Source of the DNA: a virus
Strand: one strand, 5' to 3'
UHGV virus genome: UHGV-0283667
DNA length: 14,283 bases
The notes beneath the pieces were generated by a model, which was not told the origin of the DNA, did no database searches, and was given only the letters and a program-made list of their open reading frames with translations. Below, one piece after another: positions 1-14,283 of the stretch. Position 1 is the first letter of the stretch. The number at the start of each line of letters is the position of its first letter. A program made the translations under genes and the position numbers.

Positions 1-77
1 CCTGCGCCCACGTTATAGACGAACGAGTAAAGAGCGCCGCGCGTTGTTTCCGGTATATCGACTTTGATGTACGGGTT
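1..77 (-). pseudogene. Phage endolysin (T4-lysozyme-like, GH24) fragment; reading frame runs leftward out of the window and is cut off near position 77
   Basis: Reverse-complement translation of 1-77 gives ...[26 protein letters not shown], matching the conserved core of enterobacterial prophage lysozymes. Similarity stops near 77, where the + strand Rz frame begins. Confidence 0.55.
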
Positions 78-385
78 ATTACCGTGATAACGCAATCGCC
101 TACAAAGAGCAGCGCGATAACAAGGCCAGTGAACTGGAGAAGGCGAACGCTACCATCGCTGACATGCGGAAGCGTCAACGTGATGTAGCAGAACTCGACG
201 CAAGATACACAAAGGAGCTTGCTGATGCTAACGCGACTATCGAAAGTCTCCGTGCTGATGTTTCTGCTGGGCGTAAGCGCCTGCAAGTCGCCGCCACCTG
301 TGCAAAGTCAACGACCGGTCTCACAGAAAAGCCGCCCCGAGATGGTCGCCACCATATACGGCAGTTCTCAGGCTCAACTTTCTGA
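68..385 (+). pseudogene. Rz-like inner-membrane spanin (i-spanin) fragment lacking the N-terminal transmembrane segment and the native C-terminus
   Basis: Frame opens after the TGA at 65-67. Translation [80 protein letters not shown] is lambda Rz-like (about residues 25-103). After position 316 the frame reads a non-Rz tail ([22 protein letters not shown]) to the stop at 383-385. Confidence 0.7.
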
Positions 386-398
386 AAGGCTCGGGTGA
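225..398 (+). CDS. Rz1-like outer-membrane lipoprotein spanin (o-spanin), 57 aa, in the +1 frame of Rz
   Basis: Not in the ORF track (under 60 aa). RBS AGGAG at 213-217, ATG at 225. Translation [57 protein letters not shown] has a lipoprotein signal with lipobox Cys followed by a Pro-rich stretch, as in lambda Rz1. The C-terminal part lies in the inverted segment and may not be native. Confidence 0.5.
257..316. repeat. Left arm of a 60-bp inverted repeat (58/60 identical to the reverse complement of 641-700)
   Basis: Read directly: 257-316 equals the reverse complement of 641-700 except at 266/691 and 307/650. The match does not extend at either end. Confidence 0.9.
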
Positions 399-437
399 TG
401 TAATAGGCGCGTGAGATGCGCTGTGAAATTCAGATGT

Positions 438-464
438 AAAAAAAGCCCCGCATCGCGAGGCTCA
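438..464 (-). terminator. Rho-independent terminator on the minus strand, just downstream of the minus-strand Rz fragment
   Basis: Minus-strand sequence GAGCCTCGC-GAT-GCGGGGC followed by seven U: 7-bp GC-rich stem with one G-U pair. The stem sequence is nearly identical to the + strand terminator at 1201-1226. Confidence 0.6.
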
Positions 465-493
465 TTAAATGGACTTTGTGATTTGCAAAAAAA

Positions 494-775
494 TTATTTC
501 AGGCATTGCGTCCTGATGTATTCCTGCAGGTAGTTAACCTGCGCGGTTATCTTGTCGATTCCACTTCGGAGACGGTAATAATTGAGTTCAGCATCTGCTG
601 TAAGTCCTGGGCTTTCTCCATCGCCCATGCCGCTGGCTCTGGTCGTTGATTTTGCACAGGTGGCGGCGACTTGCAGGCGCTTACGCCCAGAAGAAACATC
701 GTTTGAGGTTAAGCATCTGGCGCGCGGTAAGTGGTTGCGTTGAAATAAGAGCCAGTCCATTACAAATTTCATCAA
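494..775 (-). pseudogene. Rz (i-spanin) C-terminal portion encoded on the minus strand, fused to an unrelated 25-aa N-terminal leader
   Basis: From the arm at 700 downward the translation [66 protein letters not shown] matches the lambda Rz C-terminus, including the ...YI..QC end. The first 25 residues are not Rz-like, and the start is TTG/ATG with no clear RBS. Confidence 0.65.
641..700. repeat. Right arm of the 60-bp inverted repeat
   Basis: Reverse complement of 257-316 with two mismatches. Confidence 0.9.
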
Positions 776-870: not shown

Positions 871-1095
871 ATGTTAGAGAATTATTTCCCTTCAGGAATA
901 GGTGCTCAGCCTGTAACTCAAGCTCAAAAACAGAGGGTTATAGCTGTTCAAGCTGCCCTTGAATTAGTTAAGGCCTCACTTTCTTCTGCAGGTGGTCAGG
1001 CTACAAGTGCAAAATTTGAACAGGAATTAAAAGCAGCTATTGGCTTAATTGAACCATTAGCCGATGCCATTCAGAAAGCAATCAGCAAAGAATAA
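871..1095 (+). CDS. Hypothetical small protein (74 aa) in an AT-rich moron-like insert between the lysis and packaging modules
   Basis: RBS GGAGG at 861-865, ATG at 871. The 780-1200 region is visibly AT-rich compared with flanking phage genes. Protein is helical-looking and hydrophilic with no signal peptide or TM segment. Followed by the terminator at 1201-1226. Confidence 0.6.
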   Translation: MLENYFPSGIGAQPVTQAQKQRVIAVQAALELVKASLSSAGGQATSAKFEQELKAAIGLIEPLADAIQKAISKE

Positions 1096-1737: not shown

Positions 1738-2232
1738 ATGGCTGGAACGGCGGGGCGTTCCGGGCGTCGCCCCAAGCCAACGGCGCGCAAGGCGCTGGCC
1801 GGAAACCCCGGCAAGCGAGCCCTGAATAAAGATGAACCCGTTTTTACGCCCATCAAAGGTGTTGAGCCACCGGAGTGGTTCGCTGAAGAAGAGCTCCCTC
1901 TCGCCACGATCATGTGGCAACTGACAACCAAAGAACTCTGTGGTCAGGGCCTGCTGTGCGTGACTGACCTCGCAGTGCTTGAGCGGTGGTGCGTAGCCTA
2001 TGAGTTCTGGCGACGTGCTGTGAAAAATATTGCCAGCCAGGGCAACACCATCACCGGTGCAATGGGCGGCATGGTCAAAAATCCGGAGCTGACCGCCAAA
2101 AAAGAACAGGAGTCCGAGATGAGCAGTACGGGGGCAATGCTCGGACTCGACCCCAGCAGCCGCCAGCGTCTGATTGGCCTGGCGGGGCAGAAGAAAGCCA
2201 CTAACCCGTTTCTGAAAATTATCGAATCATGA
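1738..2232 (+). CDS. Terminase small subunit (P27-family-like)
   Basis: RBS AGGAG at 1725-1729, ATG at 1738 (the ORF track begins at an upstream GTG, 1729). About 164 aa with a basic N-terminus. The stop overlaps the terminase large subunit start (ATGA at 2229-2232). Confidence 0.85.
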
Positions 2233-3110
2233 GCCGGAAATCTTACCCCAACGTAAATGCAGCAAATCAGTATGCCCGGGATGTCGTGCGCGGAAAGATT
2301 GTTGCCTGCCAGTTTGTGATTCAGGCCTGCCAGCGCCATCTTGATGACCTGATGGCGGAAAAAAGTAAGTCGTTTCGTTACCGCTTCGACAAGGACCTGG
2401 CTGAACGGGCCGCCAAATTTATTCAGCTGTTGCCGCACACCAAGGGTGAGTGGGCATTTAAACGGATGCCCATCACGCTGGAGCCGTGGCAGCTATTTGT
2501 GATCTGCTGTGCGTTTGGCTGGGTCAATAAAGGCACCCGGTTGCGCCGCTTCCGGGAGGTGTATACCGAAATTCCCCGTAAGAACGGCAAATCGGCAATC
2601 TCTGCCGGTGTTGCCCTGTATTGTTTTGCCTGTGATAACGAGTTCGGCGCGGAAGTGTATTCCGGTGCCACGACGGAGAAACAGGCATGGGAAGTCTTTC
2701 GTCCGGCACGACTGATGTGTAAACGCACACCCATGCTGACGGAAGCGTTCGGGATTGAGGTTAACGCCTCAAACATGAACCGTCCGGAGGATGGTGCGCG
2801 GTTTGAACCGCTGATCGGTAACCCCGGTGATGGTTCATCACCCCACTGTGCCGTGGTGGATGAATATCACGAGCACGCCACAGATGCGCTTTACACCACG
2901 ATGCTTACCGGGATGGGGGCGCGACGCCAGCCACTGACCTCGAACTGCTCAAGAGTCAGTGATTTATCCTCGCAGCTCTGCCAGCTCACCAGGTTGAAAT
3001 ACGCCGAACGCGCCGACACCCAGATATTGAGGTGTTTTGTTTTAAAGACGTTTGCCAGACGGGCGTTATTTTTCGCACGTTGCTGCTGGCTTAACAAAAA
3101 CTCGCGATAA
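2229..3110 (+). CDS. Terminase large subunit, N-terminal ATPase part; family similarity ends near 2938 and the rest of the ORF is out-of-sense read-through
   Basis: Walker A-like IPRKNGKS and Walker B-like AVVDEYHEH, then ...[11 protein letters not shown]. From about 2939 the + frame reads junk ([13 protein letters not shown]...) to the stop at 3108-3110. Confidence 0.8.
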
Positions 3111-3200
3111 ACCGACACACCGATATTCGGGTTAGCTTTTTCAAGTACCTGCGGGTCGGTCCAGTCGTCGCCTTCGTCAACGGTATAGATGATCCTGGCC
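2939..3200 (-). other. Internal terminase large subunit segment in inverted orientation (sense on the minus strand)
   Basis: Minus-strand translation [87 protein letters not shown] carries the terminase signature DDW.DP...KANPN...FKTKHLN.W. It lies exactly between the N- and C-terminal + strand parts, which share one reading frame. Confidence 0.75.
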
Positions 3201-3749
3201 CCGCGTTTCTGGGTACCGTATGACACGGTGTATAGCGTCGAGAAAAATGAAGATCGCCGGACAGCCGAACGCTTTCAGAAATGGGTGGAAATGGGCGTCC
3301 TGACCGTTACCGATGGTGCAGAGGTGGATTATCGCTACATCCTCGAAGAGGCCAAAGCGGCGAACAAAATCAGCCCGGTCAGCGAGTCACCCATCGACCC
3401 CTTCGGGGCGACCGGGTTGTCACATGACCTTGCTGATGAAGACCTGAACCCCGTCACCATCATTCAGAACTACACCAACATGTCCGACCCGATGAAAGAG
3501 CTGGAAGCGGCAATTGAATCGGGGCGCTTTCATCATGATGGCAATCCCATCATGACCTGGTGTATCGGCAACGTGGTCGGAAAAACCATTCCGGGTAACG
3601 ATGATGTGGTGAAACCCGTCAAAGAGCAGGCGGAAAACAAAATCGATGGTGCAGTTGCGCTGATTATGGCGGTTGGCAGAGCCATGCTGTACGAGAAAGA
3701 AGACACGCTGTCTGACCACATTGAGTCCTACGGGATCCGCTCGCTTTAA
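3189..3749 (+). CDS. Terminase large subunit, C-terminal nuclease part (family similarity from about 3201)
   Basis: ...[20 protein letters not shown]...[18 protein letters not shown]...[16 protein letters not shown] is typical of the Terminase_1 C-terminal nuclease domain. Same frame (0) as the N-terminal part. Confidence 0.8.
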
Positions 3750-3829
3750 CTGAGGTAATTATGATCATGCTGATTCTCGCGCCTCTGGTAGGCGTGCTGG
3801 GGGCGCTTTTGCTGGCGTATGGTGTTCAG

Positions 3830-3937
3830 GCTGCCGTTCAGGTGATACAGATTGCAGGGCAACATCCCGACCGACTCTGCCAGCACCCTGACGCAGGAAA
3901 AAACCGCCGTCAGTCGCATGGCCCGCTGGCTGCTGAT
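3830..3937 (-). other. Portal protein N-terminal conserved segment in inverted orientation
   Basis: Minus-strand translation ISSQRAMRLTAVFSCVRVLAESVGMLPCNLYHLNGS matches the N-terminal conserved helix of HK97-family portals, but lies on the strand opposite the portal body. Confidence 0.65.
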
Positions 3938-3953
3938 CTGCTTTCCGGTATAG

Positions 3954-4814
3954 GTGTCATATGACACTGGCTGTGTGGTACCGAAGCTTAACAGTAGCTG
4001 GGAGCCGGTCTATCAGGTCACATTCCCGGACGGCTCCACGGATGTGCTGACCCAGGAGGATATCTGGCATGTGCGCACGCTGACGCTGGACGGTCTGGTG
4101 GGACTGAATCCCATCGCCTATGCCCGCGAGGCAATATCGCTGGCAGCAGCGACTGAAGAGCACGGTGCCAGACTGTTCAGCAATGGCGCGGTGACGTCCG
4201 GTGTGTTGCGTACAGAACAGACGCTGTCGGATCAGGCTTATGAGCGCCTGAAGAAAGATTTTGAGGAGCGTCACACCGGGCTTGGCAATGCTCACCGCCC
4301 GATGATCCTTGAGATGGGGCTGGACTGGAAGTCGATGGCGCTGAACGCCGAGGACAGCCAGTTCCTGGAAACCCGCAAGTTTCAGCTTGAAGAAATCTGT
4401 CGTCTGTTCCGTGTGCCCTTGCACATGGTGCAGAACACCGATCGCGCCACCTTCAACAATATCGAAGAGCTGGGGCTGGGATTTATCAACTATTCACTGG
4501 TGCCGTATCTGACCCGTATTGAGCAGCGGATCAACACCGGACTGGTACGAAAAAGTAAGCAGGGCGTTTATTACGCCAAATTTAACGCCGGGGCGTTACT
4601 GCGCGGGGATATGAAGTCCCGTTTTGAAGCCTACGCCACCGGGATCAACTGGGGAATTTACTCTCCCAATGACTGCCGCGACCTGGAAGATATGAATCCG
4701 CGTCCCGGTGGTGATGTCTATCTCACACCGATGAACATGACCACGAAACCCTCCGATGGTAGTAAAGCCGGTAAGCAGAAGGATAACGCCAATGCAGACG
4801 AAACAACGTCTTGA
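3954..4814 (+). CDS. Portal protein (HK97 family), body and C-terminus; N-terminal region missing from this strand
   Basis: ...EPVYQVTFPDGSTDVL...LVGLNPIAYAREAISLAAATEEHGARLFSNGAVTSGVL...FLETRKFQLEEICRLFRVPLHMVQ...GGDVYLTPMNM is portal-like. The ORF opens at GTG 3954 inside a 14-bp palindrome, with a frame-0 stop at 3951-3953 immediately upstream. Confidence 0.85.
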   Translation: MSYDTGCVVPKLNSSWEPVYQVTFPDGSTDVLTQEDIWHVRTLTLDGLVGLNPIAYAREAISLAAATEEHGARLFSNGAVTSGVLRTEQTLSDQAYERLKKDFEERHTGLGNAHRPMILEMGLDWKSMALNAEDSQFLETRKFQLEEICRLFRVPLHMVQNTDRATFNNIEELGLGFINYSLVPYLTRIEQRINTGLVRKSKQGVYYAKFNAGALLRGDMKSRFEAYATGINWGIYSPNDCRDLEDMNPRPGGDVYLTPMNMTTKPSDGSKAGKQKDNANADETTS

Positions 4815-5442
4815 TGTACCGCTGAGTCTGAAATCTGTCAGTGACTCCGGTGAGTTTGAAGGGTATGGCTCCGTCTTTGGTGTAAAGGACAGCCACGATG
4901 ATGTGGTGATGTCCGGGGCATTTGCTGCTTCCCTGCGGGCGTGGAGTGACAGAAAAACGTTACCTGCGCTGCTCTGGCAGCACCGCATGGATGAACCCAT
5001 CGGTGTTTACACCGAAATGAAGGAAGACGATGTCGGGCTTTACGTCAGGGGACGGTTGCTCATTGATGATGATCCCCTCGCAAAACGCGCACATGCACAC
5101 ATGAAGGCCGGTTCGTTAACCGGCCTTTCTATTGGGTACGTCCTGAAAGACTGGGAATACGACCGGAGCAAAGAAGCCTTTCTGTTGAAAGAAATCGACC
5201 TCTGGGAAGTCAGTCTGGTGACGTTCCCGTCTAACGACGAGGCGCGGATCAGCAACGTCAAGAACGCGCTGGCCCGCGGGGAAATCCCCGAACAGAAAAA
5301 AATCGAAAGAGTCCTGCGTGATGTCGGACTCTCCCGTACCCAGGCCAAAGCATTCATGGCCGGGGGCTATGGCGCACTGTCCCTGCGCGACGCTGAGGAT
5401 GTGGGCTCTGCACTGAATGCACTTAAAAATCTGAACTTCTAA
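4792..5442 (+). CDS. Prohead maturation protease (HK97 family)
   Basis: RBS AAGGA at 4779-4783, ATG at 4792 (track start 4756 has no RBS). Overlaps the portal 3' end. HK97-protease-like sequence. Confidence 0.85.
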   Translation: MQTKQRLDVPLSLKSVSDSGEFEGYGSVFGVKDSHDDVVMSGAFAASLRAWSDRKTLPALLWQHRMDEPIGVYTEMKEDDVGLYVRGRLLIDDDPLAKRAHAHMKAGSLTGLSIGYVLKDWEYDRSKEAFLLKEIDLWEVSLVTFPSNDEARISNVKNALARGEIPEQKKIERVLRDVGLSRTQAKAFMAGGYGALSLRDAEDVGSALNALKNLNF

Positions 5443-5456
5443 TCAGGAGAAATACG

Positions 5457-6662
5457 ATGGCGGTTGATATTAAAGATGTGGAACAGGTCGCGCAGGAGCT
5501 GCAGCAGAAGTTTGACGACTTCAGGGCAAAGAACGACAAGCGCGTGGATGCGATTGAGCAGGAAAAAGGCAAACTTGCCGGGCAGGTGGAAACCCTGAAC
5601 GGGAAACTCAGCGAGCTGGAAAATCTCAAAAGCGACCTTGAAAAAGAGCTGCTTGAGCTGAAACGTCCGGCAGGTGGTGCGCAAAATAAACTGGCCACAG
5701 AGCACAAAGAGGCGTTTGTGGGCTTTCTGCGTAAAGGCCGTGAAGACGGTCTGCGCGATCTGGAGCGCAAGGCATTGCAGGTGGGCACTGATGAAGACGG
5801 TGGCTATGCCGTGCCGGAAGCACTGGATCGCAACATTCTCACCCTGCTGAAAGATGAAGTGGTGATGCGCCAGGAAGCCACGGTGATCACTGTTGGCGGT
5901 TCCGACTACAAAAAACTGGTGAATCTGGGCGGCACGGCTTCCGGATGGGTGGGCGAGACTGACGCGCGCTCCCAGACTGCCACCTCAAAACTGGGACTGA
6001 TTGAACCTTTCATGGGGGAAATCTACGGTAACCCGCAGGCCACTCAGAAAATGCTGGATGATGCCTTCTTCAACGTGGAGGCCTGGATCAACAGCGAGCT
6101 GGCGACCGAATTTGCCGAACAGGAAGAAATTGCCTTTACCACCGGTGATGGCACTAAGAAGCCAAAAGGGTTCCTGGCGTATGAATCCACCGATGAAACC
6201 GATAAGGTTCGTGCGTTCGGTAAACTTCAGCATATTGTATCCGGTGAAGCGACGACGGTGACCGCAGACGCCATTATCAAACTGATTTACACGCTGCGTA
6301 AGGCACACCGCACTGGCGCGAAGTTCATGATGAACAACAACAGCCTGTTTGCCATCCGTCTGCTGAAAGACACCGAGGGTAACTATCTGTGGCGTCCGGG
6401 GCTGGAGCTGGGGCAACCGTCCTCTCTGGCGGGTTACGGTATCGCTGAAAACGAACAGATGCCGGATATCGCCGCTGATGCGAAAGCTATTGCATTTGGT
6501 AACTTCAAACGGGGTTACACCATCGTTGACCGTATCGGTACCCGCATTCTGCGTGATCCGTACACCAATAAACCGTTTGTCGGTTTTTATACCACCAAGC
6601 GCACCGGCGGCATGCTGGTCGATTCGCAGGCCATCAAACTGCTGAAGATTGCAGCGGCGTAG
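5457..6662 (+). CDS. Major capsid protein (HK97 fold) with N-terminal coiled-coil delta/scaffold domain
   Basis: RBS AGGAG at 5443-5447. The first ~100 aa are a charged coiled coil (KLSELENLKSDLEKELLELK), followed by a capsid domain of HK97-like length (401 aa total). Confidence 0.9.
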   Translation: MAVDIKDVEQVAQELQQKFDDFRAKNDKRVDAIEQEKGKLAGQVETLNGKLSELENLKSDLEKELLELKRPAGGAQNKLATEHKEAFVGFLRKGREDGLRDLERKALQVGTDEDGGYAVPEALDRNILTLLKDEVVMRQEATVITVGGSDYKKLVNLGGTASGWVGETDARSQTATSKLGLIEPFMGEIYGNPQATQKMLDDAFFNVEAWINSELATEFAEQEEIAFTTGDGTKKPKGFLAYESTDETDKVRAFGKLQHIVSGEATTVTADAIIKLIYTLRKAHRTGAKFMMNNNSLFAIRLLKDTEGNYLWRPGLELGQPSSLAGYGIAENEQMPDIAADAKAIAFGNFKRGYTIVDRIGTRILRDPYTNKPFVGFYTTKRTGGMLVDSQAIKLLKIAAA

Positions 6663-6670
6663 TCATTCAG

Positions 6671-6688
6671 GGGCGCTGAATTGCGCCC
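6671..6688 (+). terminator. GC-rich stem-loop directly after the major capsid gene; possible partial terminator or mRNA stabiliser
   Basis: GGGCGC-TGAATT-GCGCCC, followed by TTGTTCT (weak U tract). Confidence 0.35.
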
Positions 6689-6711
6689 TTGTTCTGACAG
6701 GTGAAAGAATC

Positions 6712-6900
6712 ATGATCCTGAAACAAGATCTGAAATGGTCACCGGACGGTATGCGCGTTGAGATCATTCGTGCTGGTGAGTATGAAGATAAAGAATTACC
6801 CGAACGGGTACGTGAAATTGCCACTGCAGCAGGGATTGTTTCTGATAAGAGAACACCTGTTGCACGGGTATCTGATAAGGCTAAAAAACAGCATTCATAG
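6712..6900 (+). CDS. Hypothetical small protein (62 aa) between capsid and connector genes
   Basis: ATG at 6712 in frame with track ORF 6649..6900. Hydrophilic, no recognisable family. Lower GC than neighbours. Confidence 0.45.
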   Translation: MILKQDLKWSPDGMRVEIIRAGEYEDKELPERVREIATAAGIVSDKRTPVARVSDKAKKQHS

Positions 6901-6911
6901 AGGTAGCCCAA

Positions 6912-7217
6912 ATGATGCCTACTCTGGAAGAGCTTCGTGTTCAGTGCCGGATTGATGATGACAATGAACAGGAGAATGCACTTCTTATGATGTATCTGGC
7001 AGCAGCCAGAGAAGAGGCTGAAAAGTTTTTAAACCGGACACTTCACGATGAAACTGTTCCTGATCAGGATACGACCGGGCTTGTAATAACACCACTGATA
7101 AAGTTGCGTCTTATGCAACTGGTTGGCTACTGGTACGAGAACAGGGAAATGCAGGATGCTGTACCTGATTTTTTCTATACCGGACTCCGAATGTATCGGT
7201 TTCATCCCGGAACATAG
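6912..7217 (+). CDS. Head-tail connector protein (gp6-like)
   Basis: N-terminal pattern M.PTLEELRVQCRIDDD...ALL..YLAAAREE typical of gp6-like connector proteins. Size 101 aa and position after the capsid gene fit. Confidence 0.7.
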   Translation: MMPTLEELRVQCRIDDDNEQENALLMMYLAAAREEAEKFLNRTLHDETVPDQDTTGLVITPLIKLRLMQLVGYWYENREMQDAVPDFFYTGLRMYRFHPGT

Positions 7218-7226
7218 GAGGATTTC

Positions 7227-7565
7227 ATGCAGGCAGGAAGATTACGTGATCGCGTGGTTATTCTGAATATTACGACCTCCCGTACCCCTTCCGGTCACCC
7301 GGAGGAAACCCTGAAAGAGGGGGCTACGGTATGGGCAGAGGTTAAGGGGATCAGTGGGCGGGAACGTATATCGGGCGGTGCGGAAACCGCGCAGACAACA
7401 GTAAGAGTCTGGATGCGATTTCGGCGCGATGTGACGGCCGCCTCACGTCTGAAAGTGCTGACCGGGGCATTCAAGGGAGCCATTCTGAATATCGACGGGC
7501 CGCCGATCCCGGACGCACGATCCTCCAGGCTTGAAATACTTTGCAGCCAGAGAGGTGGAATGTGA
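7227..7565 (+). CDS. Head closure / head-tail adaptor protein
   Basis: RBS AGGAGG 7 nt upstream of ATG 7227. N-terminal MQAGRLRDRVVI motif typical of the head-tail joining family. 112 aa. Confidence 0.7.
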   Translation: MQAGRLRDRVVILNITTSRTPSGHPEETLKEGATVWAEVKGISGRERISGGAETAQTTVRVWMRFRRDVTAASRLKVLTGAFKGAILNIDGPPIPDARSSRLEILCSQRGGM

Positions 7566-8011
7566 CGGATTTTAGTCTGGATTTTTCTGGCCTGGCGGAT
7601 ATTGCAAGAGATCTGGAACTTCTCAGCAGAGCAGAGAGTAATAAGGTGCTTCGCGATGCCTCCCGTGCCGGTGCAGAGGTTATCCGGGAGGCGGTTATTG
7701 ATCATGCGCCAGAGCGAACCGGAAAACTGAAGAAAAACGTGGTTATTCTGACTCAGCGTTCACGGCGTCGTGGTGAAATTATCTCTGGTGTCCACATTCG
7801 TGGGCGGAATCTGCGAACCGGAAACAGTGATAACAGCATGAAAGCCAGCGATCCGCGAAACGCGTTTTACTGGCGTTTCGTGGAGCTGGGGACTATCAAT
7901 ATGCCTGCCCATCCGTTCATTCGCCCGGCCTTTGATACGACAGAGGAGCTGGCAGCACAGGTTGCCATGAAGCATATGAATCAGGCTATTGATGGGGTGC
8001 TGAGTAAATGA
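7562..8011 (+). CDS. Tail component, HK97 gp10-like family
   Basis: Likely GTG start at 7562 after RBS AGAGGTGG (track start is TTG 7541). Motifs ...IDHAPERTGKL... and ...FYWRFVELGT...PAHPFIRPAFD resemble the gp10 family. Confidence 0.65.
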   Translation: MTDFSLDFSGLADIARDLELLSRAESNKVLRDASRAGAEVIREAVIDHAPERTGKLKKNVVILTQRSRRRGEIISGVHIRGRNLRTGNSDNSMKASDPRNAFYWRFVELGTINMPAHPFIRPAFDTTEELAAQVAMKHMNQAIDGVLSK

Positions 8012-8352
8012 GAGAAGCCACGCTGTATGCTCTTCTGTCCCAACTGGCCGGAGGGCAGGTTTATCCTTATGTGGTCCCGCTGACGGAGGGAAAGCCTGCG
8101 GTATCTCCACCATGGCTGGTGTTTTCAGTGGTGTCTGACATCGCGTCTGATGTGCTTGATGGTCAGGCTGAATCCAGAATTACCGTGCAGATTGATATCT
8201 GGGCAACGGCTCCTGATGACGCAGATGATATCCGTGAGCAGGCGCTTGATGCGGTAAGGGAACTGGCACCATCCGTTATTTCTAAAACTCAGGGTTATGA
8301 TCCTGATTCCCGTCTGAGCAGAGCTACGCTTGAATTTCAGGTAATAGCCTGA
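8008..8352 (+). CDS. Tail completion protein (DUF3168-like)
   Basis: ATGA start/stop overlap with the upstream gene. N-terminal ...LYALL...VYPYVVP... pattern. 114 aa. Confidence 0.55.
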   Translation: MREATLYALLSQLAGGQVYPYVVPLTEGKPAVSPPWLVFSVVSDIASDVLDGQAESRITVQIDIWATAPDDADDIREQALDAVRELAPSVISKTQGYDPDSRLSRATLEFQVIA

Positions 8353-8373
8353 GGTCGTTAATGATTTTACCCA

Positions 8374-8394
8374 CCCGCCGCTGGCGGGTTTTTT
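8374..8394 (+). terminator. Intrinsic terminator-like hairpin immediately upstream of the major tail protein gene
   Basis: CCCGCC-GCT-GGCGGG followed by TTTTTT. Confidence 0.6.
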
Positions 8395-8411
8395 ATTTTC
8401 AGGAGACGAGT

Positions 8412-9116
8412 ATGTCCTCTAATTTTGAACGTTCTCAGCAGACCAAAGTCATGATCTCGTCTGCACCGGTAACGGCAGAAACGCTGAGTTCTGCCAGTTT
8501 TCTTGAACTGAGCTGTACGATTAAAGAGGTTCAGTTTACCGCCGGGCAGAAACAGGATATTGATGTCACTACGCTGTGTTCTACCGAGCAGGAGAATATC
8601 AACGGTCTTGGGGCTGCTTCAGAGATTTCCATGTCAGGAAACTTTTATCTCAACTCTGCCCAGAACGCGTTGCGTAGTGCTTATGACAACGACACCACAT
8701 ACGGTTTCAAAGTTATTTTCCCGTCAGGAAATGGATTTACTTTTATGGCAGAAGTTCGCCAGCATACCTGGTCTGTGGGAACCAACGGTGTTGTTGCTGC
8801 CACATTTTCCCTGCGCCTGAAAGGAAAGCCCTCTCTGACCACTGAACCTTTGAAACTCCTCTCTGATTTGAAAAGTACACTACAGGTTTCTGCCAGTGAA
8901 ACGCTGAATATGTCTGTTGAGGCATCAGGTGGTGTGCCTCCTTATTCATATGTCTGGAAGAAAGGCAGCTCTCCAGTTTCCGGGCAGACATCGGCAACTT
9001 TCAACAAGGCCTCCGTGACATCCGGAGATGCCGGTGCGTATACCTGTGAGGTTTCTGATTCAGCAAGCCCGATTAATAAGGTGACCTCCACTTCCTGCAC
9101 CGTAACTGTCAGTTAA
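8412..9116 (+). CDS. Major tail protein with C-terminal Ig-like domain
   Basis: RBS AGGAG 6 nt upstream of ATG 8412 (track start 8361 lies inside the terminator). The C-terminal ~85 aa look like a Big_2/Ig-like domain. Confidence 0.8.
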   Translation: MSSNFERSQQTKVMISSAPVTAETLSSASFLELSCTIKEVQFTAGQKQDIDVTTLCSTEQENINGLGAASEISMSGNFYLNSAQNALRSAYDNDTTYGFKVIFPSGNGFTFMAEVRQHTWSVGTNGVVAATFSLRLKGKPSLTTEPLKLLSDLKSTLQVSASETLNMSVEASGGVPPYSYVWKKGSSPVSGQTSATFNKASVTSGDAGAYTCEVSDSASPINKVTSTSCTVTVS

Positions 9117-9130
9117 GGAGGATGAAATCT

Positions 9131-9502
9131 ATGTCTAAAAATATCCGCAATCTGGCACTGGCGACGATGTCTGGTTTTCGCCACAAAACAGTTGATGTTC
9201 CTGAGTGGGAAGGTACAACGGTTGTATTACGGGAACCCTCTGCAGAAGCCTGGTTACGTTGGCAGGAGATCGTTAAAACCGGAGATGATGATACACCGTT
9301 ATCAGTTGCGGAGCGTGCCCGCCGAAATCTGGAAGCGGATGTTGAACTGTTCATCGATGTTCTGTGTGATACCGGGATGCAACCCGTGTTTTCAGCGGAT
9401 GATCGGGAGCAGGTACTTGCAGTATATGGTCCGGTACATGCGCGACTGCTTCGTCAGTCACTGGAACTGATCACTGATGCTGAAGTTATTAAAAAAAAGT
9501 AG
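9131..9502 (+). CDS. Tail assembly chaperone (gpG-like)
   Basis: RBS AAGGAGG at 9115-9121, ATG at 9131. Acidic ~124-aa protein directly upstream of the tape measure gene, ending in a slippery A-run. Confidence 0.75.
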   Translation: MSKNIRNLALATMSGFRHKTVDVPEWEGTTVVLREPSAEAWLRWQEIVKTGDDDTPLSVAERARRNLEADVELFIDVLCDTGMQPVFSADDREQVLAVYGPVHARLLRQSLELITDAEVIKKK

Positions 9503-9804
9503 CACTTCCGGGTATTCGTTTTCTGATGATGCTGGCGCTCAGGATGGGGCGCACATTGTCAGAGTTACGCCGGGAAATGTCTGCATCGGAAATCATGATG
9601 TGGGCAGAATTTGACAGGATCAGCCCGCTGGGTGACGAGCGGGCTGATATCCGGGCTGCCCAGATAGTTTCTGCAGTTTACGGGGCGCAGGGTGTCAAAG
9701 TTCCACTGAATGAAGCGATTCTTCAGTGGGAGGTCGTTCCTGCAAATAATATTAAAGATCCGTTCACAGCGTTTGAAAATGCATTATTTGCAGCGACACA
9801 ATGA
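9131..9804 (+). CDS. Tail assembly chaperone frameshift fusion product (gpGT-like) by -1 ribosomal frameshift at 9493-9499
   Basis: The -1 frame is open from 9493 through the stop at 9802-9804. The slippery run sits just before the G stop at 9500-9502. Confidence 0.65.
9491..9499 (+). promoter_or_regulatory. Programmed -1 frameshift slippery site (A AAA AAG)
   Basis: Heptamer A-AAA-AAG at 9493-9499 within the run AAAAAAAAG (9491-9499). Confidence 0.65.
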
Positions 9805-9814
9805 TCTTCTTACT

Positions 9815-9844
9815 TTACTGGATTATGATTCCGATTTTTATTAA
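9815..9844 (+). promoter_or_regulatory. Candidate sigma-70 promoter for the downstream moron
   Basis: TTACTG (9815-9820), 18-bp spacer, TATTAA (9839-9844), in an AT-rich intergenic stretch. Confidence 0.3.
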
Positions 9845-9862
9845 GTAAATAAGGAGATATTG

Positions 9863-10204
9863 ATGGAAGTTATTCTTATTGCGCTAGTCCTGGGGTTAAT
9901 TCCGGCTATTATCGCGCAAAGTAAAGGGCGTTCATTTTGGGGATGGTGGATATACGGAGCCTTACTCTTTATCGTTGCCTTGGTTCATTCACTTGTAATC
10001 CAAAAAGATGAAAAAACGCATGAGCAACAAATGGTGAGCAATGGCATGAAAAAATGCCCTTACTGTGCGGAGTTGATCAAAGAAGAAGCCATTAAGTGTA
10101 AGCATTGCGGTAGTGATTTAACACATAACCCTGATAGTACCGTTTCGCAAAAAACGGATGATGAATATCTTGAAGAAGCAAGGCGTAAGGCTGGGCTTCT
10201 TTAA
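9863..10204 (+). CDS. Moron: small membrane protein with two predicted TM helices and a C-terminal zinc-ribbon (CPYC...CKHC)
   Basis: RBS AAGGAG at 9851-9856, ATG at 9863. Two hydrophobic stretches, then CPYC-x13-CKHC. AT-rich codon usage unlike flanking tail genes. Own terminator downstream. Confidence 0.7.
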   Translation: MEVILIALVLGLIPAIIAQSKGRSFWGWWIYGALLFIVALVHSLVIQKDEKTHEQQMVSNGMKKCPYCAELIKEEAIKCKHCGSDLTHNPDSTVSQKTDDEYLEEARRKAGLL

Positions 10205-10209
10205 AAGCA

Positions 10210-10234
10210 AAAACCGCTTCGGCGGTTTTTTTTT
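10210..10234 (+). terminator. Rho-independent terminator (A-tract upstream, so possibly bidirectional)
   Basis: AAAACCGC-TTCG-GCGGTTTT followed by a T9 run. Confidence 0.75.
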
Positions 10235-10249
10235 GCCTGGAGAACGAGA

Positions 10250-13200
10250 ATGGCGTCACTACGCGAACTGATTATAAAAATCTCGGCAAATTCGCAGTCA
10301 TTCCAGTCAGAAATTGCGCGAGCTTCACGTATGGGACAGGAGTACTACCGTACCATGCAGAACGGAGGTCGACAGTCTGCAGCTGCATCCCGTGATATGC
10401 GGCGAGCACTGGCAGAAGTGACCGAGCAGATAAATACGGCGAAGTCTTCGGCAATGAATATGGCTGGCGCATTTGCCGGTGCTTTTGCCACTGGACATCT
10501 TATATCTCTTGCGGATGAATGGAGCTCAGTAAATGCCCGTTTGAAGCAGGCCACGCAGTCCAGCGATGATTTCCAGGCATCACAGCGCGAATTAATGGCG
10601 ATCAGCCAGAGAACGGGTACTGCTTTTGCTGATAACGCCAGTCTTTTTGCACGTTCGGCTTCTTCCATGCGGGAATATGGTTACAGGTCTGAGGAAGTAC
10701 TGAAAGTTACCGAGGCCATTTCTACAGGATTGAAATTGTCCGGAGCCAGTTCTGCGGAAGCCAGCTCGGTGATCACTCAGTTCAGCCAGGCACTGGCGCA
10801 AGGGGTTCTGCGCGGTGAAGAGTTTAATTCAGTAAATGAAAGCGGTGATCGTGTTATTCGTGCTCTGGCTGCAGGAATGGGGGTTGCCCGTAAAGATCTG
10901 AAGGCAATGGCGGATGATGGAAAGCTGACCGCCGATAAGGTTGTTCCTGCACTGATTAGCCAGCTTGGTACGCTGCGGGATGAATATGCAGCCATGCCTG
11001 ATACCGTATCATCCTCTGCAACCAAAGTTGAAAACGCCTTTATGGCCTGGGTTGGTGGTGCGAATGATGCCAGCGGTGCAACGAAAACGCTTACCGGAAT
11101 AATGAATGGTGTTGCGAATAATATTGATACGGTTGCCACGGCGGCGGGAGCTCTGGTTGCAATTGGTGTAGCCCGATATTTTGGCAATATGGCGTCTTCT
11201 GCGGGCTCTGCAACTGCCGGGTTAATCACTGTTGCCAGAAACGAAGTGGCTCTTGCTGAGGCACAGCTCAGAGGGACACAGATAGCAACAGCCAGAGCGC
11301 GGGCGGCATTGTATCGTGCGCAGCAGGCGGTTGTGGCTGCCCGTGGTACAGAAAAACAGGCTGCAGCAGAAGCGAAACTGGCAACCGCACAGGCTTCACT
11401 TACCCGTAATATTGCTGCCAGAACAGCGGCACAGGCAACGCTGAATAACGTTACGTCAGTTAGTAGTCGGTTGTTAAGCGGTGCTCTGGGGCTGGTTGGT
11501 GGTGTGCCTGGACTTGTCATGCTGGGGGCGGCGGCCTGGTACACAATGTATCAGAACCAGGAGCAGGCCAGAGAATCAGCGCGTCAGTATGCCGCAACAA
11601 TCGACGAAATTCGCCAGAAAACGTCTGCAATGTCACTTCCTGAAGCGGCAGATAATGAAGAAAAGACGCGGCAGGCTCTGGAGGAGCAGAACAGGTTAAT
11701 TGACGAGCAGAAAAGTAAGATTAAATCCTTACAGGAAAAAATTGCTGGCTATCAGTATGTCCTGGCAAACCCGGGCTGGACAACCGATAACGGTTTTATG
11801 ATTAACCACATGACGTCGGTGAAAACTGTCACAGAAGGGCTTGCAGAAGCAACAAGTCAGCTGGCTGTTGAGCAGTCCCGACTTTCCGGAATGCAGGAAA
11901 AAGCCCAGTCAATCCAGGATGTGCTTGCCGGGCTGGAAGAACGACGAGTGGTGCTGATCCGCCAACAGGCAGCGGAACAAAACAAAGCATATCAGTCATT
12001 ACTGATCATGAATGGCCAACATACCGAGTTTAATCGTCTTCTTGGGCTTGGTAATGAATTACTTCAGCAGCGACAGGGGCTGGTGAATGTACCGTTACGG
12101 CTGCCACAGGCTGCTCTGGATGATAAACAGCAGAACGCGCTGAATAACACTGAGCGAGAGCTGACCTTATCCCGTATGAAGGGGGAAGCGCGTGAGCGTA
12201 CTCGTCTGGGCTATGTAGCGGATGATCTCGGTTTTGTGGGGGATGCCTATCAGACGGCAAGGCAAACTTATATCAACAACGCGCTGGAAGCATGGCGTAA
12301 CAACCAGGCGAATAAGCCAAAGGTACGTGGTGGAAAATCGGAAGCAGAAAAAACGGAAGATGCTTATAACAGACTGATTAAACAACAAAAAGAACAAATA
12401 GCACTGGCAGGACAGAATACTGAACTGGCTAAGATGAAATACCAGGTCAGCCAGGGCGAATTATCAACCTTATCAGAAGCGCAGAAACAAACCCTTTTAC
12501 AGAATGCAGCACTCATCGACCAGAAAAAAATTCGTGAGCAAATTGCTGCTTATGAAAGCAGCCTGGCGGACAGTAACGCCAGTGTCAGGGCATCAAATGA
12601 GGCTCAGTTGTTAGGGTATGGAGACGGAACACGAATACGTGAGCGGCTTCAGGAAATGTGGAACATCCGACAGGAGTTTGAGCAGAAAAATAATGAGTTG
12701 CTGAGACAGTACCAGACCGGAGAAATCGAAGAAGCCCTGTGGAAACAGGAAAAAACGCTGAATGAAAAATATCTGGAGGAGCGTCTCAACGATCAGCAGG
12801 ATTATTATGCAAAGGCCGATGCTTTACGCAGTAACTGGAATGCTGGGCTCAAAGAGGGGCTGACGAACTGGGCAGACAGTGCCACTGATTATGCTTCACA
12901 AGCGGCAGATGCGGTCGTTTCCACTATGGATGGTCTGGTTTCAAATATTTCCGAGGCACTGGCCGGAAACGTTGTGGACTGGAGAAACTGGGGGAGTTCG
13001 ATCCTTCAGGAAGTTTCAAAAATCCTGATGAACGCGGCCATTGTTAACGGGCTGAAATCACTCTCCGGGACAATGTCGGGAGCGGGGGGATGGATTGGTA
13101 GTGTTGGCGACTGGCTTTCCGGTGCAGTAGCGAACGCAAAAGGCGGTGTTTACACATCGGCAAATCTGAGTGCTTACAGTAACACCATTGTGGATACGCC

Positions 13201-13492
13201 GACGTACTTTGCTTTTGCGAAAGGTGCCGGGCTGATGGGGGAAGCCGGACCTGAAGCTATCATGCCGCTTACGCGGGCGGCGGACGGTTCTCTTGGGGTC
13301 AGGGCTATTGGCAATGTGAATGGTGGTGGCGGATTTGTCTATTCTCCCGTGTATCACATCAATATTCAGAATAAAGGGAGCAATGGCGAGATTGATACGC
13401 AGTCAGCCAGGGGGCTGGTGGATCTGATCGACAGCAGGGTTGTGTCAATTATGCAGTCATCACGTCGGGACGGAGGATTATGCAGTGCCTGA
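10250..13492 (+). CDS. Tail tape measure protein (1080 aa)
   Basis: RBS GGAGA 6 nt upstream of ATG 10250. Long Ala/Gln-rich helical protein immediately after the G/GT chaperone genes. Confidence 0.92.
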   Translation: MASLRELIIKISANSQSFQSEIARASRMGQEYYRTMQNGGRQSAAASRDMRRALAEVTEQINTAKSSAMNMAGAFAGAFATGHLISLADEWSSVNARLKQATQSSDDFQASQRELMAISQRTGTAFADNASLFARSASSMREYGYRSEEVLKVTEAISTGLKLSGASSAEASSVITQFSQALAQGVLRGEEFNSVNESGDRVIRALAAGMGVARKDLKAMADDGKLTADKVVPALISQLGTLRDEYAAMPDTVSSSATKVENAFMAWVGGANDASGATKTLTGIMNGVANNIDTVATAAGALVAIGVARYFGNMASSAGSATAGLITVARNEVALAEAQLRGTQIATARARAALYRAQQAVVAARGTEKQAAAEAKLATAQASLTRNIAARTAAQATLNNVTSVSSRLLSGALGLVGGVPGLVMLGAAAWYTMYQNQEQARESARQYAATIDEIRQKTSAMSLPEAADNEEKTRQALEEQNRLIDEQKSKIKSLQEKIAGYQYVLANPGWTTDNGFMINHMTSVKTVTEGLAEATSQLAVEQSRLSGMQEKAQSIQDVLAGLEERRVVLIRQQAAEQNKAYQSLLIMNGQHTEFNRLLGLGNELLQQRQGLVNVPLRLPQAALDDKQQNALNNTERELTLSRMKGEARERTRLGYVADDLGFVGDAYQTARQTYINNALEAWRNNQANKPKVRGGKSEAEKTEDAYNRLIKQQKEQIALAGQNTELAKMKYQVSQGELSTLSEAQKQTLLQNAALIDQKKIREQIAAYESSLADSNASVRASNEAQLLGYGDGTRIRERLQEMWNIRQEFEQKNNELLRQYQTGEIEEALWKQEKTLNEKYLEERLNDQQDYYAKADALRSNWNAGLKEGLTNWADSATDYASQAADAVVSTMDGLVSNISEALAGNVVDWRNWGSSILQEVSKILMNAAIVNGLKSLSGTMSGAGGWIGSVGDWLSGAVANAKGGVYTSANLSAYSNTIVDTPTYFAFAKGAGLMGEAGPEAIMPLTRAADGSLGVRAIGNVNGGGGFVYSPVYHINIQNKGSNGEIDTQSARGLVDLIDSRVVSIMQSSRRDGGLCSA

Positions 13493-13826
13493 ACCTGAAG
13501 CTTTTAACTGGATCCCCCGCGAGGGGATGGAGACGACACGAAAGCCATCTGTTATTACGGTAAAGTTCGGTGACGGATATGAACAGCGACGGGCTGGTGG
13601 TCTGAATGCGGATCTGAAAACGTTTAAACCGGTATTTCGGGTCACAGATGAATATTCCCGCGCTGCGCTGGACAGTTTTTTATCCCGTCATGCCGGGATG
13701 CGTGCTTTTTTGTGGCGTCCGCCAAAATACAACAGGACCGTCCGGGTTGTCTGCAGGGAGTGGAGTATTTCGGATAATGCCATGTATACCGATTTTAACT
13801 GTACCTTTGAAGAGGTCACTCACTGA
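13485..13826 (+). CDS. Minor tail protein M (lambda gpM-like)
   Basis: Likely GTG start at 13485 after RBS GGAGGA, overlapping the tape measure 3' end (track start is TTG 13440). ...VKFGDGYEQRRAGGLNADLKTFKPVF...FLWRPP... matches lambda M. Confidence 0.85.
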   Translation: MPEPEAFNWIPREGMETTRKPSVITVKFGDGYEQRRAGGLNADLKTFKPVFRVTDEYSRAALDSFLSRHAGMRAFLWRPPKYNRTVRVVCREWSISDNAMYTDFNCTFEEVTH

Positions 13827-14218: not shown

Positions 14219-14283
14219 TATCGGACGTCGGCTGGTCATATTCATCCGCGACAGCCGGACCGCTATAACCGCACTCATCACCG
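14150..14283 (-). other. Minor tail protein L C-terminal region in inverted orientation; continues beyond the window end
   Basis: Minus-strand translation GDECGYSGPAVADEYDQPTSDITKDKCSKCLSGCKFRNNVGNFG matches the Cys-rich C-terminal region of lambda L. Confidence 0.75.

What the first reader, a model, noticed from the sequence alone, without database searches (positions are those of the whole stretch)
225..398. Unlisted Rz1-like lipoprotein ORF in the +1 frame of Rz
A 57-codon ORF below the ORF-track threshold has a strong RBS (AGGAG at 213-217), a lipoprotein signal (h-region [10 protein letters not shown], lipobox Cys) and a Pro-rich stretch ([11 protein letters not shown]), the hallmarks of an o-spanin. 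Its first ~30 codons lie in and before the repeat arm; the remainder lies in the inverted segment. In this orientation it ends 13 nt beyond the Rz stop (overlapped rather than embedded architecture), and still ends ...SERLG, reminiscent of the lambda Rz1 end.
Basis: partly seen in the sequence, partly recalled or inferred. Interest (0 to 1): 0.5.

Follow-up and report, generated by a model that had tools for sequence, protein, structure and literature searches.

The report
Broken Rz1 gene, not new spanin
The small lipoprotein ORF is the first half of an ordinary phage Rz1 (outer-membrane spanin) gene that a local strand flip has fused to meaningless antisense sequence, so it is a broken known gene rather than a new kind of lysis protein.

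Summary

Only codons 1-31 (225-317) are Rz1. They are identical to the embedded 61-aa Rz1 of DLP12/HK97-type cassettes. At 317/318 the sequence switches to the reverse complement of non-coding DNA that normally lies downstream of the Rz terminator. The 26-residue tail, including "SERLG", has no similarity to any Rz1.

The ORF gets no Pfam Rz1 hit. The missing half sits on the minus strand (547-699, 72 bits). Flipping 317-640 rebuilds the native embedded Rz1 exactly. Rz itself lacks about its first 24 codons, so no working spanin pair is encoded.

The flip is one of eight strand-flip junctions in the window. Each jumps 304-366 bp ahead in the reference, and two others break the terminase and portal genes. 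Otherwise the window is about 100% identical to intact E. coli prophages. No junction was found in any public collection searched. I judge them most likely technical chimeras.

Side observation: the tail lies antisense to a widely conserved, apparently structured leader RNA that is absent from Rfam.

The parts
213..217 (+). Shine-Dalgarno AGGAG of the native Rz1 gene
   Evidence: Read directly. The same sequence precedes Rz1 in intact cassettes.
225..317 (+). Genuine 5' part of Rz1: codons 1-31, comprising the signal peptide, lipobox VSAC with Cys20, and the first 11 mature residues including PPP
   Evidence: Identical to codons 1-31 of the EC05 Rz1. Rz1-family proteins cover only this 54% of the query. 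Lipobox patterns are met.
318..398 (+). Non-native 26-codon tail plus stop, the antisense read-through of non-coding DNA
   Evidence: Window 318-700 is the reverse complement of a contiguous Rz 3' half, terminator and downstream non-coding block in Chlobot, EC05 and HK106. The tail has no Pfam hit and no alignment to lambda Rz1. Homologues of the block carry indels that are not multiples of 3.
78..317 (+). Internal fragment of the i-spanin gene Rz, about codons 25-105 of 153; the N-terminal transmembrane domain and the C-terminal third are missing
   Evidence: BLAST to EC05 at 99.6%. Pfam Phage_lysis PF03245 matches profile positions 1-75 of 126 only. The translation is compared with EC05 and lambda Rz.
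257..316 (+). Left arm of the 60-nt inverted repeat (Rz codons about 85-104, EC05/Chlobot-type allele)
641..700 (-). Right arm of the inverted repeat: the same Rz/Rz1 stretch on the other strand, 1517k/AH01-type allele at both mismatches and at the next base (640)
547..699 (-). The other part of Rz1: codons 12-61 plus stop, holding the whole mature-protein domain but only 8 residues ahead of the Cys
   Evidence: Listed by the ORF listing. Pfam Rz1 PF06085 scores 72.0 bits, profile positions 1-41 of 41. It fails the signal/lipobox patterns because the n-region is missing.
494..700 (-). 3' part of Rz (codons about 85-153 plus stop)
   Evidence: Joining 1-316 to the reverse complement of 317-640 gives ...STTRASGMGDGESPGLTADAELNYYRLRSGIDKITAQVNYLQEYIRTQCLK*.
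436..466 (-). Rho-independent terminator that follows Rz
   Evidence: Hairpin plus T-run in the sequence. It aligns with the annotated terminator of HK106.
318..425 (-). Conserved non-coding leader block, cut at its 3' end by the junction at 317/318
1..77 (-). Fragment from the middle of an endolysin (rrrD-type) gene, inverted relative to the Rz fragment next to it
   Evidence: 100% identical to EC05 rrrD, L005 3298-3375.
317..318 (.). Strand-flip junction J1 that creates the chimeric ORF. Its sister junctions lie at 77/78, 700/701, 2937/2938, 3195/3196, 3824/3825, 3966/3967 and 14150/14151

Best explanation
The ORF is a broken copy of an ordinary embedded Rz1 (o-spanin) gene of the DLP12/HK97/phi80 type.

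Shown: nt 225-317 encode the native signal peptide, lipobox and first 11 mature residues. At 317/318 the DNA switches strand. The next 383 nt are the reverse complement of the Rz 3' half, its terminator and about 140 nt of downstream non-coding DNA. The Rz1 frame therefore runs on for 26 meaningless codons to a chance stop. The real Rz1 and Rz C-terminal halves lie on the minus strand. Flipping 317-640 rebuilds the native 61-aa Rz1 and Rz residues 25-153. The Rz fragment also lacks its N-terminal membrane anchor, because at 77/78 it abuts an inverted endolysin fragment.

Inferred: no functional spanin pair is encoded. If translated, the ORF would give a 38-residue lipopeptide. By the +2 rule (Lys at +2) it would be sent to the outer membrane, but it lacks the part of Rz1 that meets Rz.

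Inferred, about 0.65: the flip is a technical chimera from assembly or library preparation, not a feature of a living genome. It is one of eight junctions of identical geometry in a sequence otherwise about 100% identical to intact prophages.
For: Intact relatives have Rz of 153 aa with an embedded Rz1, [27 protein letters not shown](S/N)QRPEPAAWAMEKAQDLQQMLNSIITVSEVEST(R/G).

Window 318-700 matches phage Chlobot and E. coli EC05 as one contiguous piece on the opposite strand (98.4-98.5%), and HK106 at 91.8-91.9%.

Pfam Rz1 gives no hit for the ORF, 72.5 bits for the flipped reconstruction and 72.0 bits for minus-strand ORF 547-699.

In the protein search, the Rz1-family hits cover only the first ~54% of the query; the other hits examined (P0016-P0032) are antisense ORF calls over the non-coding block.

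The window is a chain of nine blocks of strictly alternating strand. Every junction jumps 304-366 bp ahead in reference coordinates: 310, 324, 304, 366, 363, 339, 315, 341. Colinear parts are 100% identical to E. coli 1517k apart from 3 SNPs in 13.5 kb. The flips truncate TerL and portal.

Eight independent public contigs that encode the identical tape-measure protein are all colinear, with TerL of 577 aa in seven of them (498 aa as called in L141) and portal of 413 aa in all.

No junction was found. BLAST of 5,426 complete E. coli genomes and 50,697 phage records gave no place covering 80% of the junction-spanning queries. Exact-pattern scans found nothing for junctions 317/318 and 700/701 in IMG/VR and GTDB representative genomes, or for 317/318 in JGI metagenomes.

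Both ends of the window lie inside short inverted blocks, although such blocks make up only 7% of it.

The inverted block 318-700 changes from the resident prophage's Rz allele to a second, DLP12-type allele across an 87-nt identical stretch. This is what repeat-induced chimeras do.
Against: I could not see reads or the source record, so 'artefact' is an inference from pattern. The five junctions testable against an identical reference show no microhomology, and I cannot name a specific technical process that gives a constant jump of about 330 bp in both junction types. A real, recent complex rearrangement in one strain would look the same in a single sequence. A truncated lipopeptide could still be made, and a function for it cannot be excluded by sequence alone.
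Confidence: 0.82

Rival explanations
1. The same reading of the ORF (a broken Rz1 fused to antisense DNA), but the strand flips are real. On this view one bacterial lineage carries a prophage recently scrambled by several deletion-inversion-deletion or duplication-inversion events, and the ORF is a pseudogene remnant.
For: The junctions are clean, and the sequence between them is of high quality. The 60-nt duplication with two alleles could come from recombination between two resident prophages. Cryptic prophages do decay.
Against: It would need eight junctions of one geometry in 14 kb alongside only 3 point differences. Strand alternation is strict, the jump is narrow (304-366 bp), and both window ends lie in inverted blocks. 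No other assembly of this very common prophage shares any junction. No IS element, recombinase gene or repeat lies at the other junctions.
Confidence: 0.25
2. The segment 317-640, flanked by the 60-nt inverted repeats, is a reversible genetic switch that turns the spanin genes on and off. The ORF at 225-398 would be the 'off'-state product.
For: There is a real 60-nt inverted repeat at 97% identity. Flipping the segment restores both reading frames exactly.
Against: No invertase or recombinase gene is in the window; the homologous prophage is annotated throughout with structural and packaging genes. The flipped state with a leftover inverted arm was not found in any genome either: intact relatives have no second arm, and AH01 and 1517k carry unrelated sequence left of 701. 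The arms are two different natural alleles, not a duplicated site. Rz would still lack its N-terminus after flipping. Seven other junctions of the same kind have no repeats.
Confidence: 0.04
3. The ORF is a functional, novel o-spanin with an overlapped architecture and a new C-terminal domain.
For: It has a good RBS, a lipobox and part of the Pro-rich stretch. The tail peptide recurs in database 'hypothetical proteins'.
Against: Those proteins have unrelated N-termini and are antisense calls over a non-coding block whose homologues carry frame-breaking indels. The ORF gets no Pfam Rz1 hit. No protein among those at E <= 0.01 was seen to combine both halves. The partner Rz is truncated at both ends. 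Kongari et al. 2018 found no spanin family that mixes embedded with overlapped members (PMC6139136).
Confidence: 0.02

Closest known systems
Lambda Rz1 / Pfam PF06085 (embedded o-spanin of the Rz-Rz1 two-component spanin)
   Same: It starts in the +1 frame of Rz at about 0.48 of Rz length. It has a signal peptide with the lipobox Cys at residue 20 and a Pro-rich stretch after the Cys. The reconstruction aligns to lambda Rz1 at E = 2e-8.
   Different: As it stands in the window, the ORF keeps only 11 mature residues of Rz1, fails the family model, and ends outside the Rz-frame ORF.
Rz1 of DLP12-like and HK97-like cassettes (E. coli EC05 prophage, phages Chlobot, HK106, phi80; 'Rz1 family lipoprotein' in RefSeq)
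   Same: Codons 1-31 are identical. The window's two halves together reproduce the 61-aa protein exactly.
   Different: In those genomes the gene is one piece and fully embedded, ending 53 nt before the Rz stop in AH01. Here it is split between the two strands.
Inverted chimeric junctions of technical origin, such as inverted chimeras of multiple-displacement amplification or mis-joined assemblies (from my own knowledge, not tested)
   Same: Strand flips with short-range jumps and intervening deletions, private to one sequence, in otherwise perfect sequence. One block crosses between two repeat copies.
   Different: No microhomology at the junctions. The jump is unusually uniform at 304-366 bp. 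I cannot assign a specific process.
Site-specific invertible segments (Hin/Gin/Cin/Pin-type switches, invertons)
   Same: A segment bounded by inverted repeats whose orientation decides which reading frame is complete.
   Different: No recombinase gene is present. The arms are 60-nt pieces of coding sequence from two alleles. There is no evidence of both orientations anywhere. Seven sister junctions lack repeats.

Membership tests
Rz1 / o-spanin family (Pfam PF06085) | N-terminal lipoprotein signal with a lipobox [LVI][ASTVI][GAS]C | tested here: met
   VSAC with Cys20, and R4 and K7 in the n-region. The G+LPP and PROSITE-type core patterns match. The consensus is as quoted in PMC6139136.
Rz1 / o-spanin family (Pfam PF06085) | Match to the family profile, which covers the mature protein | tested here: not met
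   No hit at E <= 1 for the 57-aa ORF. The flipped reconstruction scores 72.5 bits and minus-strand ORF 547-699 scores 72.0 bits.
Rz1 / o-spanin family (Pfam PF06085) | Conserved C-terminal half (...PEPAAWAMEKAQDLQQMLNSIITVSE..., equivalent to lambda ...PPAWIMQPPPDWQTPLNGIISPSE) | tested here: not met
   The tail [26 protein letters not shown] gives no alignment to lambda Rz1. The conserved half is on the other strand.
Rz1 / o-spanin family (Pfam PF06085) | Gene lies wholly inside the +1 frame of its Rz gene (embedded architecture of this family) | tested here: not met
   The start is in the +1 frame, but the stop lies 13 nt beyond the stop of the chimeric Rz-frame ORF. Intact relatives are embedded.
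Rz1 / o-spanin family (Pfam PF06085) | Intact partner i-spanin, i.e. Rz with an N-terminal transmembrane domain and a C-terminal coiled coil | tested here: not met
   The Rz frame has a stop at 65-67 and matches Rz only from about codon 25. Pfam Phage_lysis covers profile positions 1-75 of 126.
Rz1 / o-spanin family (Pfam PF06085) | Outer-membrane disruption together with Rz (lysis function) | not testable with these tools
   This needs complementation of lambda Rz/Rz1 mutants.
Invertible DNA switch (inverton) | Inverted repeats that bound the segment | tested here: met
   257-316 and 641-700, 60 nt, 97%.
Invertible DNA switch (inverton) | Cognate invertase or recombinase gene nearby | tested here: not met
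   The homologous prophage region is annotated end to end with lysis, packaging, head and tail genes only.
Invertible DNA switch (inverton) | Both orientations observed in populations or related genomes | tested here: not met
   Neither the window's junctions nor a flipped version with a residual arm occur in any collection searched. Relatives have a single, uninterrupted Rz.

The most novel reading that the evidence does not exclude
The strand flips are real and biological. On this reading an unknown in vivo process repeatedly flips the strand with a stride of about 330 bp along a prophage. At the spanin genes it leaves a 60-nt inverted repeat across which homologous recombination could flip the 324-nt segment back, making Rz/Rz1 reversibly switchable. 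Nothing in a single sequence can strictly exclude this. Separately, and more probably (about 0.5 by my estimate), the DNA under the ORF's tail is part of an undescribed structured leader RNA; see the items noticed in passing.
Probability: 0.04. Interest if true: 0.7.

Novelty: already known. Interest (0 to 1): 0.12.

Why it matters
For the finding itself it matters little. It is a disrupted copy of one of the best-studied phage lysis genes. The features that looked new, an overlapped architecture and a new C-terminus, are by-products of a strand flip.

The practical value is cautionary. This window carries eight private strand-flip junctions, so other 'findings' from it should be read as consequences of the same phenomenon. 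These include an invertible segment at 317-640, split terminase and portal genes, and odd ORFs at block borders. They should be checked against the reads.

The by-product with possible biological value is the conserved leader upstream of Rha/KilA-N genes.

Tried and rejected
**Source contig.** I looked for the source contig by exact-product look-up of three rearrangement-specific ORFs: the 73-aa chimeric Rz, the 59-aa ORF and the 293-aa truncated TerL. None is on record.

**Junction scans.**
- I scanned IMG/VR and GTDB representative genomes for exact junctions 317/318 and 700/701, and JGI metagenomes for 317/318. There were no matches.
- BLAST of the junction-spanning stretches against complete E. 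coli genomes and phage records found no single place covering 80% or more of the query.

**Family searches.**
- NCBIfam gave no hit even for the intact Rz1, so it is uninformative here.
- Rfam gave nothing for the non-coding block, either in the window or in intact loci. The only sub-threshold hits in the window lie elsewhere (854-934 and 1085-1228); the two shown ending at 1227-1228 rest mainly on a terminator hairpin.

**Literature.** A search for the block's core sequence returned only unrelated papers.

**Ideas considered and rejected.**
- Recombination between two inverted prophages as the cause. That would keep Rz colinear and would not duplicate an arm.
- Template switching at microhomology. 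There is none at five junctions.
- Simple concatenation of read pairs. It explains head-to-head junctions but not tail-to-tail junctions with the same positive jump.
- A coding role for the tail. The frame is broken by indels in homologues.

Full report
**1. The observation**

The ORF exists as described.
- The ATG is at 225 and the stop at 396-398, giving 57 codons. The ORF listing begins it at an upstream TTG at 219.
- AGGAG lies at 213-217.
- The product is [57 protein letters not shown].
- It passes two lipoprotein signal patterns, with the lipid-modified Cys at residue 20. That is the same position as in lambda Rz1.
- It is in the +1 frame of the Rz frame and ends 13 nt after the stop of the Rz-frame ORF 164-385.

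**2. What the two halves of the ORF are**

A closely related intact cassette is in E. coli AH01. It has a 153-aa Rz with a fully embedded Rz1, [61 protein letters not shown].

The DLP12-like cassette of E. coli EC05 encodes the same Rz1 with S at residue 28 and a terminal R. Its first 31 residues are identical to the window ORF.

After residue 31 the window ORF diverges completely. The cause is visible at the DNA level.
- Window 318-700 matches phage Chlobot (98.5%), EC05 (98.4%), HK106 and phi80 as one contiguous piece, but on the opposite strand.
- That piece comprises the Rz 3' half, the annotated rho-independent terminator and about 140 nt of downstream non-coding DNA. It ends about 30 nt before the next gene, a GIY-YIG nuclease in HK106 and EC05.
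- The last 26 codons of the ORF are therefore the antisense reading of non-coding DNA.
- The true C-terminal halves lie on the minus strand. Rz codons about 85-153 are at 494-700. Rz1 codons 12-61 are ORF 547-699.
- Joining 1-316 to the reverse complement of 317-640 regenerates the EC05 Rz1 exactly, and Rz from about residue 25 to its end.

**3. Family tests**

| Sequence | Pfam result |
|---|---|
| 57-aa ORF 225-398 | Rz1 (PF06085): nothing at E <= 1 |
| Flipped reconstruction (61 aa) | Rz1: 72.5 bits |
| Minus-strand ORF 547-699 | Rz1: 72.0 bits |
| Rz-frame product | Phage_lysis (PF03245): profile positions 1-75 of 126 only |

- The tail gives no BLASTP alignment to lambda Rz1 even at E = 100.
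- The reconstruction aligns to lambda Rz1 at 2e-8, with LNSIITVSE opposite lambda's LNGIISPSE. The 'SERLG' resemblance is therefore coincidental.
- In a search of 5.8 billion proteins, the Rz1-family hits cover only the first 54% of the query.
- The other hits examined (P0016-P0032), from E. coli, Salmonella, Citrobacter and Cronobacter, match only the tail. Their flanks differ from one another, and none listed carries a Pfam domain. No hit among those at E <= 0.01 was seen to combine the two halves.
- Kongari et al. 2018 define the embedded, overlapped and separated architectures. They found no family that mixes embedded with overlapped members, and they report that embedded o-spanins typically start at 0.4-0.5 and end at 0.9-1 of the i-spanin length (PMC6139136). 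The native gene here starts at about 0.48 and ends at about 0.88 of Rz.
- The 'overlapped' look of the window ORF is therefore produced by the rearrangement.

**4. Rz is also cut at its 5' end**

- Window 1-78 is the reverse complement of the middle of an rrrD-type endolysin gene, 100% identical to EC05.
- It abuts Rz at about codon 25, and 232 nt are missing between them.
- The Rz frame has a stop at 65-67 and no transmembrane segment.
- Neither spanin subunit is intact in the window.

**5. The flip at 317/318 is one of a series**

From 701 to the end, the window is essentially identical to a prophage of E. coli 1517k, with 3 mismatches in 13.5 kb. It is broken into blocks of strictly alternating strand.

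| Block | Window coordinates | Orientation |
|---|---|---|
| p4 | 701-2937 | forward |
| p5 | 2938-3195 | inverted |
| p6 | 3196-3824 | forward |
| p7 | 3825-3966 | inverted |
| p8 | 3967-14150 | forward |
| p9 | 14151-14283 | inverted |

With 1-78 (inverted), 78-318 (forward) and 318-700 (inverted), this makes nine blocks and eight junctions.

- At every junction the sequence changes strand and restarts 304-366 bp further along the reference. The eight values are 310, 324, 304, 366, 363, 339, 315 and 341.
- Where the inverted block is shorter than the jump, the result is deletion-inversion-deletion. Deleted stretches are 108 and 105 nt, 197 and 173 nt, and 208 nt. This breaks the terminase large subunit and the portal gene.
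- At the spanin genes the inverted block (383 nt) is longer than the jump (324). That is why a 60-nt inverted repeat appears there and nowhere else.
- The five junctions that can be compared with an identical reference have no microhomology.

**6. The arms of the repeat are two different alleles**

- The left arm carries the EC05/Chlobot bases at both mismatch positions and at the base that follows.
- The right arm carries the 1517k/AH01 bases at all three positions.
- The inverted block then changes to the EC05/Chlobot type after an 87-nt stretch where the two alleles are identical.
- The block therefore starts in the resident prophage's own Rz and crosses into a second, DLP12-type cassette through a shared repeat.

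**7. Are the junctions seen anywhere else?**

They are not.
- No complete E. coli genome (5,426) or phage record (50,697) has a place covering 80% or more of the junction-spanning queries.
- Exact scans for junctions 317/318 and 700/701 in IMG/VR and GTDB representative genomes, and for 317/318 in JGI metagenomes, found nothing.
- The window's exact tape-measure protein is listed in 244 blocks of the collection.
- All eight contigs returned are colinear. TerL is 577 aa in seven of them (498 aa as called in L141) and portal is 413 aa in all.
- Against every one of them, the window's inverted blocks fall at the same breakpoints. The rearrangements are therefore private to the window.
- Both ends of the window lie inside short inverted blocks, which make up only 7% of its length. 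By my estimate the chance of this is about 0.005 if the ends were arbitrary.

**8. Interpretation**

The part I regard as shown:
- The ORF is Rz1 codons 1-31 fused to antisense non-coding sequence.
- The native gene is embedded and is split between the two strands.
- Rz is truncated at both ends.

The part that is inferred:
- The flips are technical chimeras (about 0.65) rather than a real, recent scrambling in one strain (about 0.25-0.3).
- The argument rests on one stereotyped geometry repeated eight times in otherwise perfect sequence, the repeat-mediated crossing between two loci, the position of the window ends, and the absence of the junctions elsewhere.
- I cannot name the exact process. 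Simple read-pair concatenation explains only one of the two junction types, and the lack of microhomology argues against template switching.
- A reversible switch across the 60-nt repeat is very unlikely. There is no recombinase gene. The arms are two alleles. No relative has the second arm. Flipping would still leave Rz without its membrane anchor.

**9. Side observation: the DNA under the ORF's tail**

On the phage sense strand (window minus strand, 318 to about 425) lies a non-coding block. It is conserved at 82-97% in lambdoid and P22-like phages of Escherichia, Salmonella, Klebsiella, Enterobacter, Pantoea, Providencia, Hafnia and Actinobacillus.

Position:
- In the nine intact loci examined it sits between the terminator after the lysis genes and the start codon of the next gene.
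- The downstream genes differ. They are Rha (PF09669) or KilA-N (PF04383) proteins, often with an ORF11CD3 C-terminal domain, or GIY-YIG-like or HNH_3 nucleases.
- Indels that are not multiples of three show that the block is not coding.

Predicted structure:
- An alignment of 63 distinct versions gives a consensus long hairpin.
- In it, YCUUUCAGAAAG pairs with CUUUCUAAAAGG, which contains the Shine-Dalgarno sequence of the downstream gene.
- GAGCCUG pairs with CAGGCUC.
- There is an apical hairpin AUGGU/ACCAU, with variants AGGU/ACCU and AGCU/AGCU.

Support:
- 99.4% of cells are paired, against 41-49% when the partners are slid.
- Five pairs show changes on both sides; 12 of 500 shuffles reach this. 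The covariation score is 0.087 against 0.047, reached by 0 of 500 shuffles.
- Most double changes come from one clade and from the two main sequence types, so the support is moderate.
- The intact EC05 version folds at -44.3 kcal/mol with z = -3.4. Divergent versions fold the same way.
- A competing helix also shows two compensatory pairs between the main types: upstream CCCGAG or CGAGAG with CUCGGG or CUCUCG, against core CCUGAGA with UCUCGGG.
- No Rfam 15 family matches it.

I read it as a candidate translational (or attenuation) control leader for the first gene after the lysis cassette. I put about 0.5 on its being a real functional RNA. In the window it is truncated by the junction and inverted, so it is not functional there. 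It also explains the 'hypothetical proteins' that match the ORF's tail: they are antisense ORF calls over this block.

**10. Verdict**

- The ORF is a disrupted copy of a known gene. Its novel-looking properties are by-products of a strand flip that is probably not biological.
- Interest is low.
- Other features of this window that lie at block borders should be treated with the same caution.

Noticed in passing
window 1-78, 318-700, 2938-3195, 3825-3966, 14151-14283: The whole window is a chain of nine blocks of strictly alternating strand relative to intact prophages. Each of the eight junctions jumps 304-366 bp ahead in reference coordinates. The colinear parts are about 100% identical to E. 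coli 1517k, and the junctions are private to this window.
   Followed up: yes
window 2229-3749 and 3954-4814: The terminase large subunit and portal genes are broken by two deletion-inversion-deletion events: 108 + 105 nt and 197 + 173 nt are lost around inverted blocks of 258 and 142 nt. In seven of eight other contigs that encode the identical tape-measure protein TerL is 577 aa (498 aa as called in the eighth); portal is 413 aa in all eight.
   Followed up: yes
window 318-425, minus strand (intact copies e.g. L005:2476-2600:-, L009:880-1010:+): A conserved non-coding leader lies between the lysis-cassette terminator and the next gene (Rha, KilA-N, GIY-YIG-like or HNH_3). It occurs in many enterobacterial and Pasteurellaceae phages. 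The predicted long hairpin sequesters the Shine-Dalgarno sequence, covariation support is moderate, an alternative helix competes with it, and it is absent from Rfam 15. It is a candidate new cis-regulatory RNA.
   Followed up: partly
proteins P0016-P0036, matching window 330-398: Public databases hold 'hypothetical proteins' (for example [29 protein letters not shown]...) from E. coli, Salmonella, Citrobacter and Cronobacter. They appear to be spurious antisense ORF calls across the conserved leader and the terminator.
   Followed up: partly
window 553-700: The inverted Rz block is a mosaic. It carries the 1517k/AH01-type allele at 691, 650 and 640, and the EC05/Chlobot-type allele from 552 downwards. 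The switch falls inside an 87-nt stretch that is identical in both alleles, which implies that two Rz loci contributed.
   Followed up: yes
window 871-1095: A 74-aa ORF (MLENYFPSGIGAQPVTQAQKQRV...) lies between the lysis cassette and the HNH endonuclease gene. It is annotated only as a hypothetical protein (WP_000892817.1) in related prophages. Its function is unknown.
   Followed up: no
window 436-466 and 1198-1228: Two similar terminator-like hairpins are reported as an imperfect inverted repeat (31 nt, 71%). The second also produces sub-threshold Rfam hits (Leu_leader at 27 bits, OmrA-B) that look like terminator matches only.
   Followed up: no
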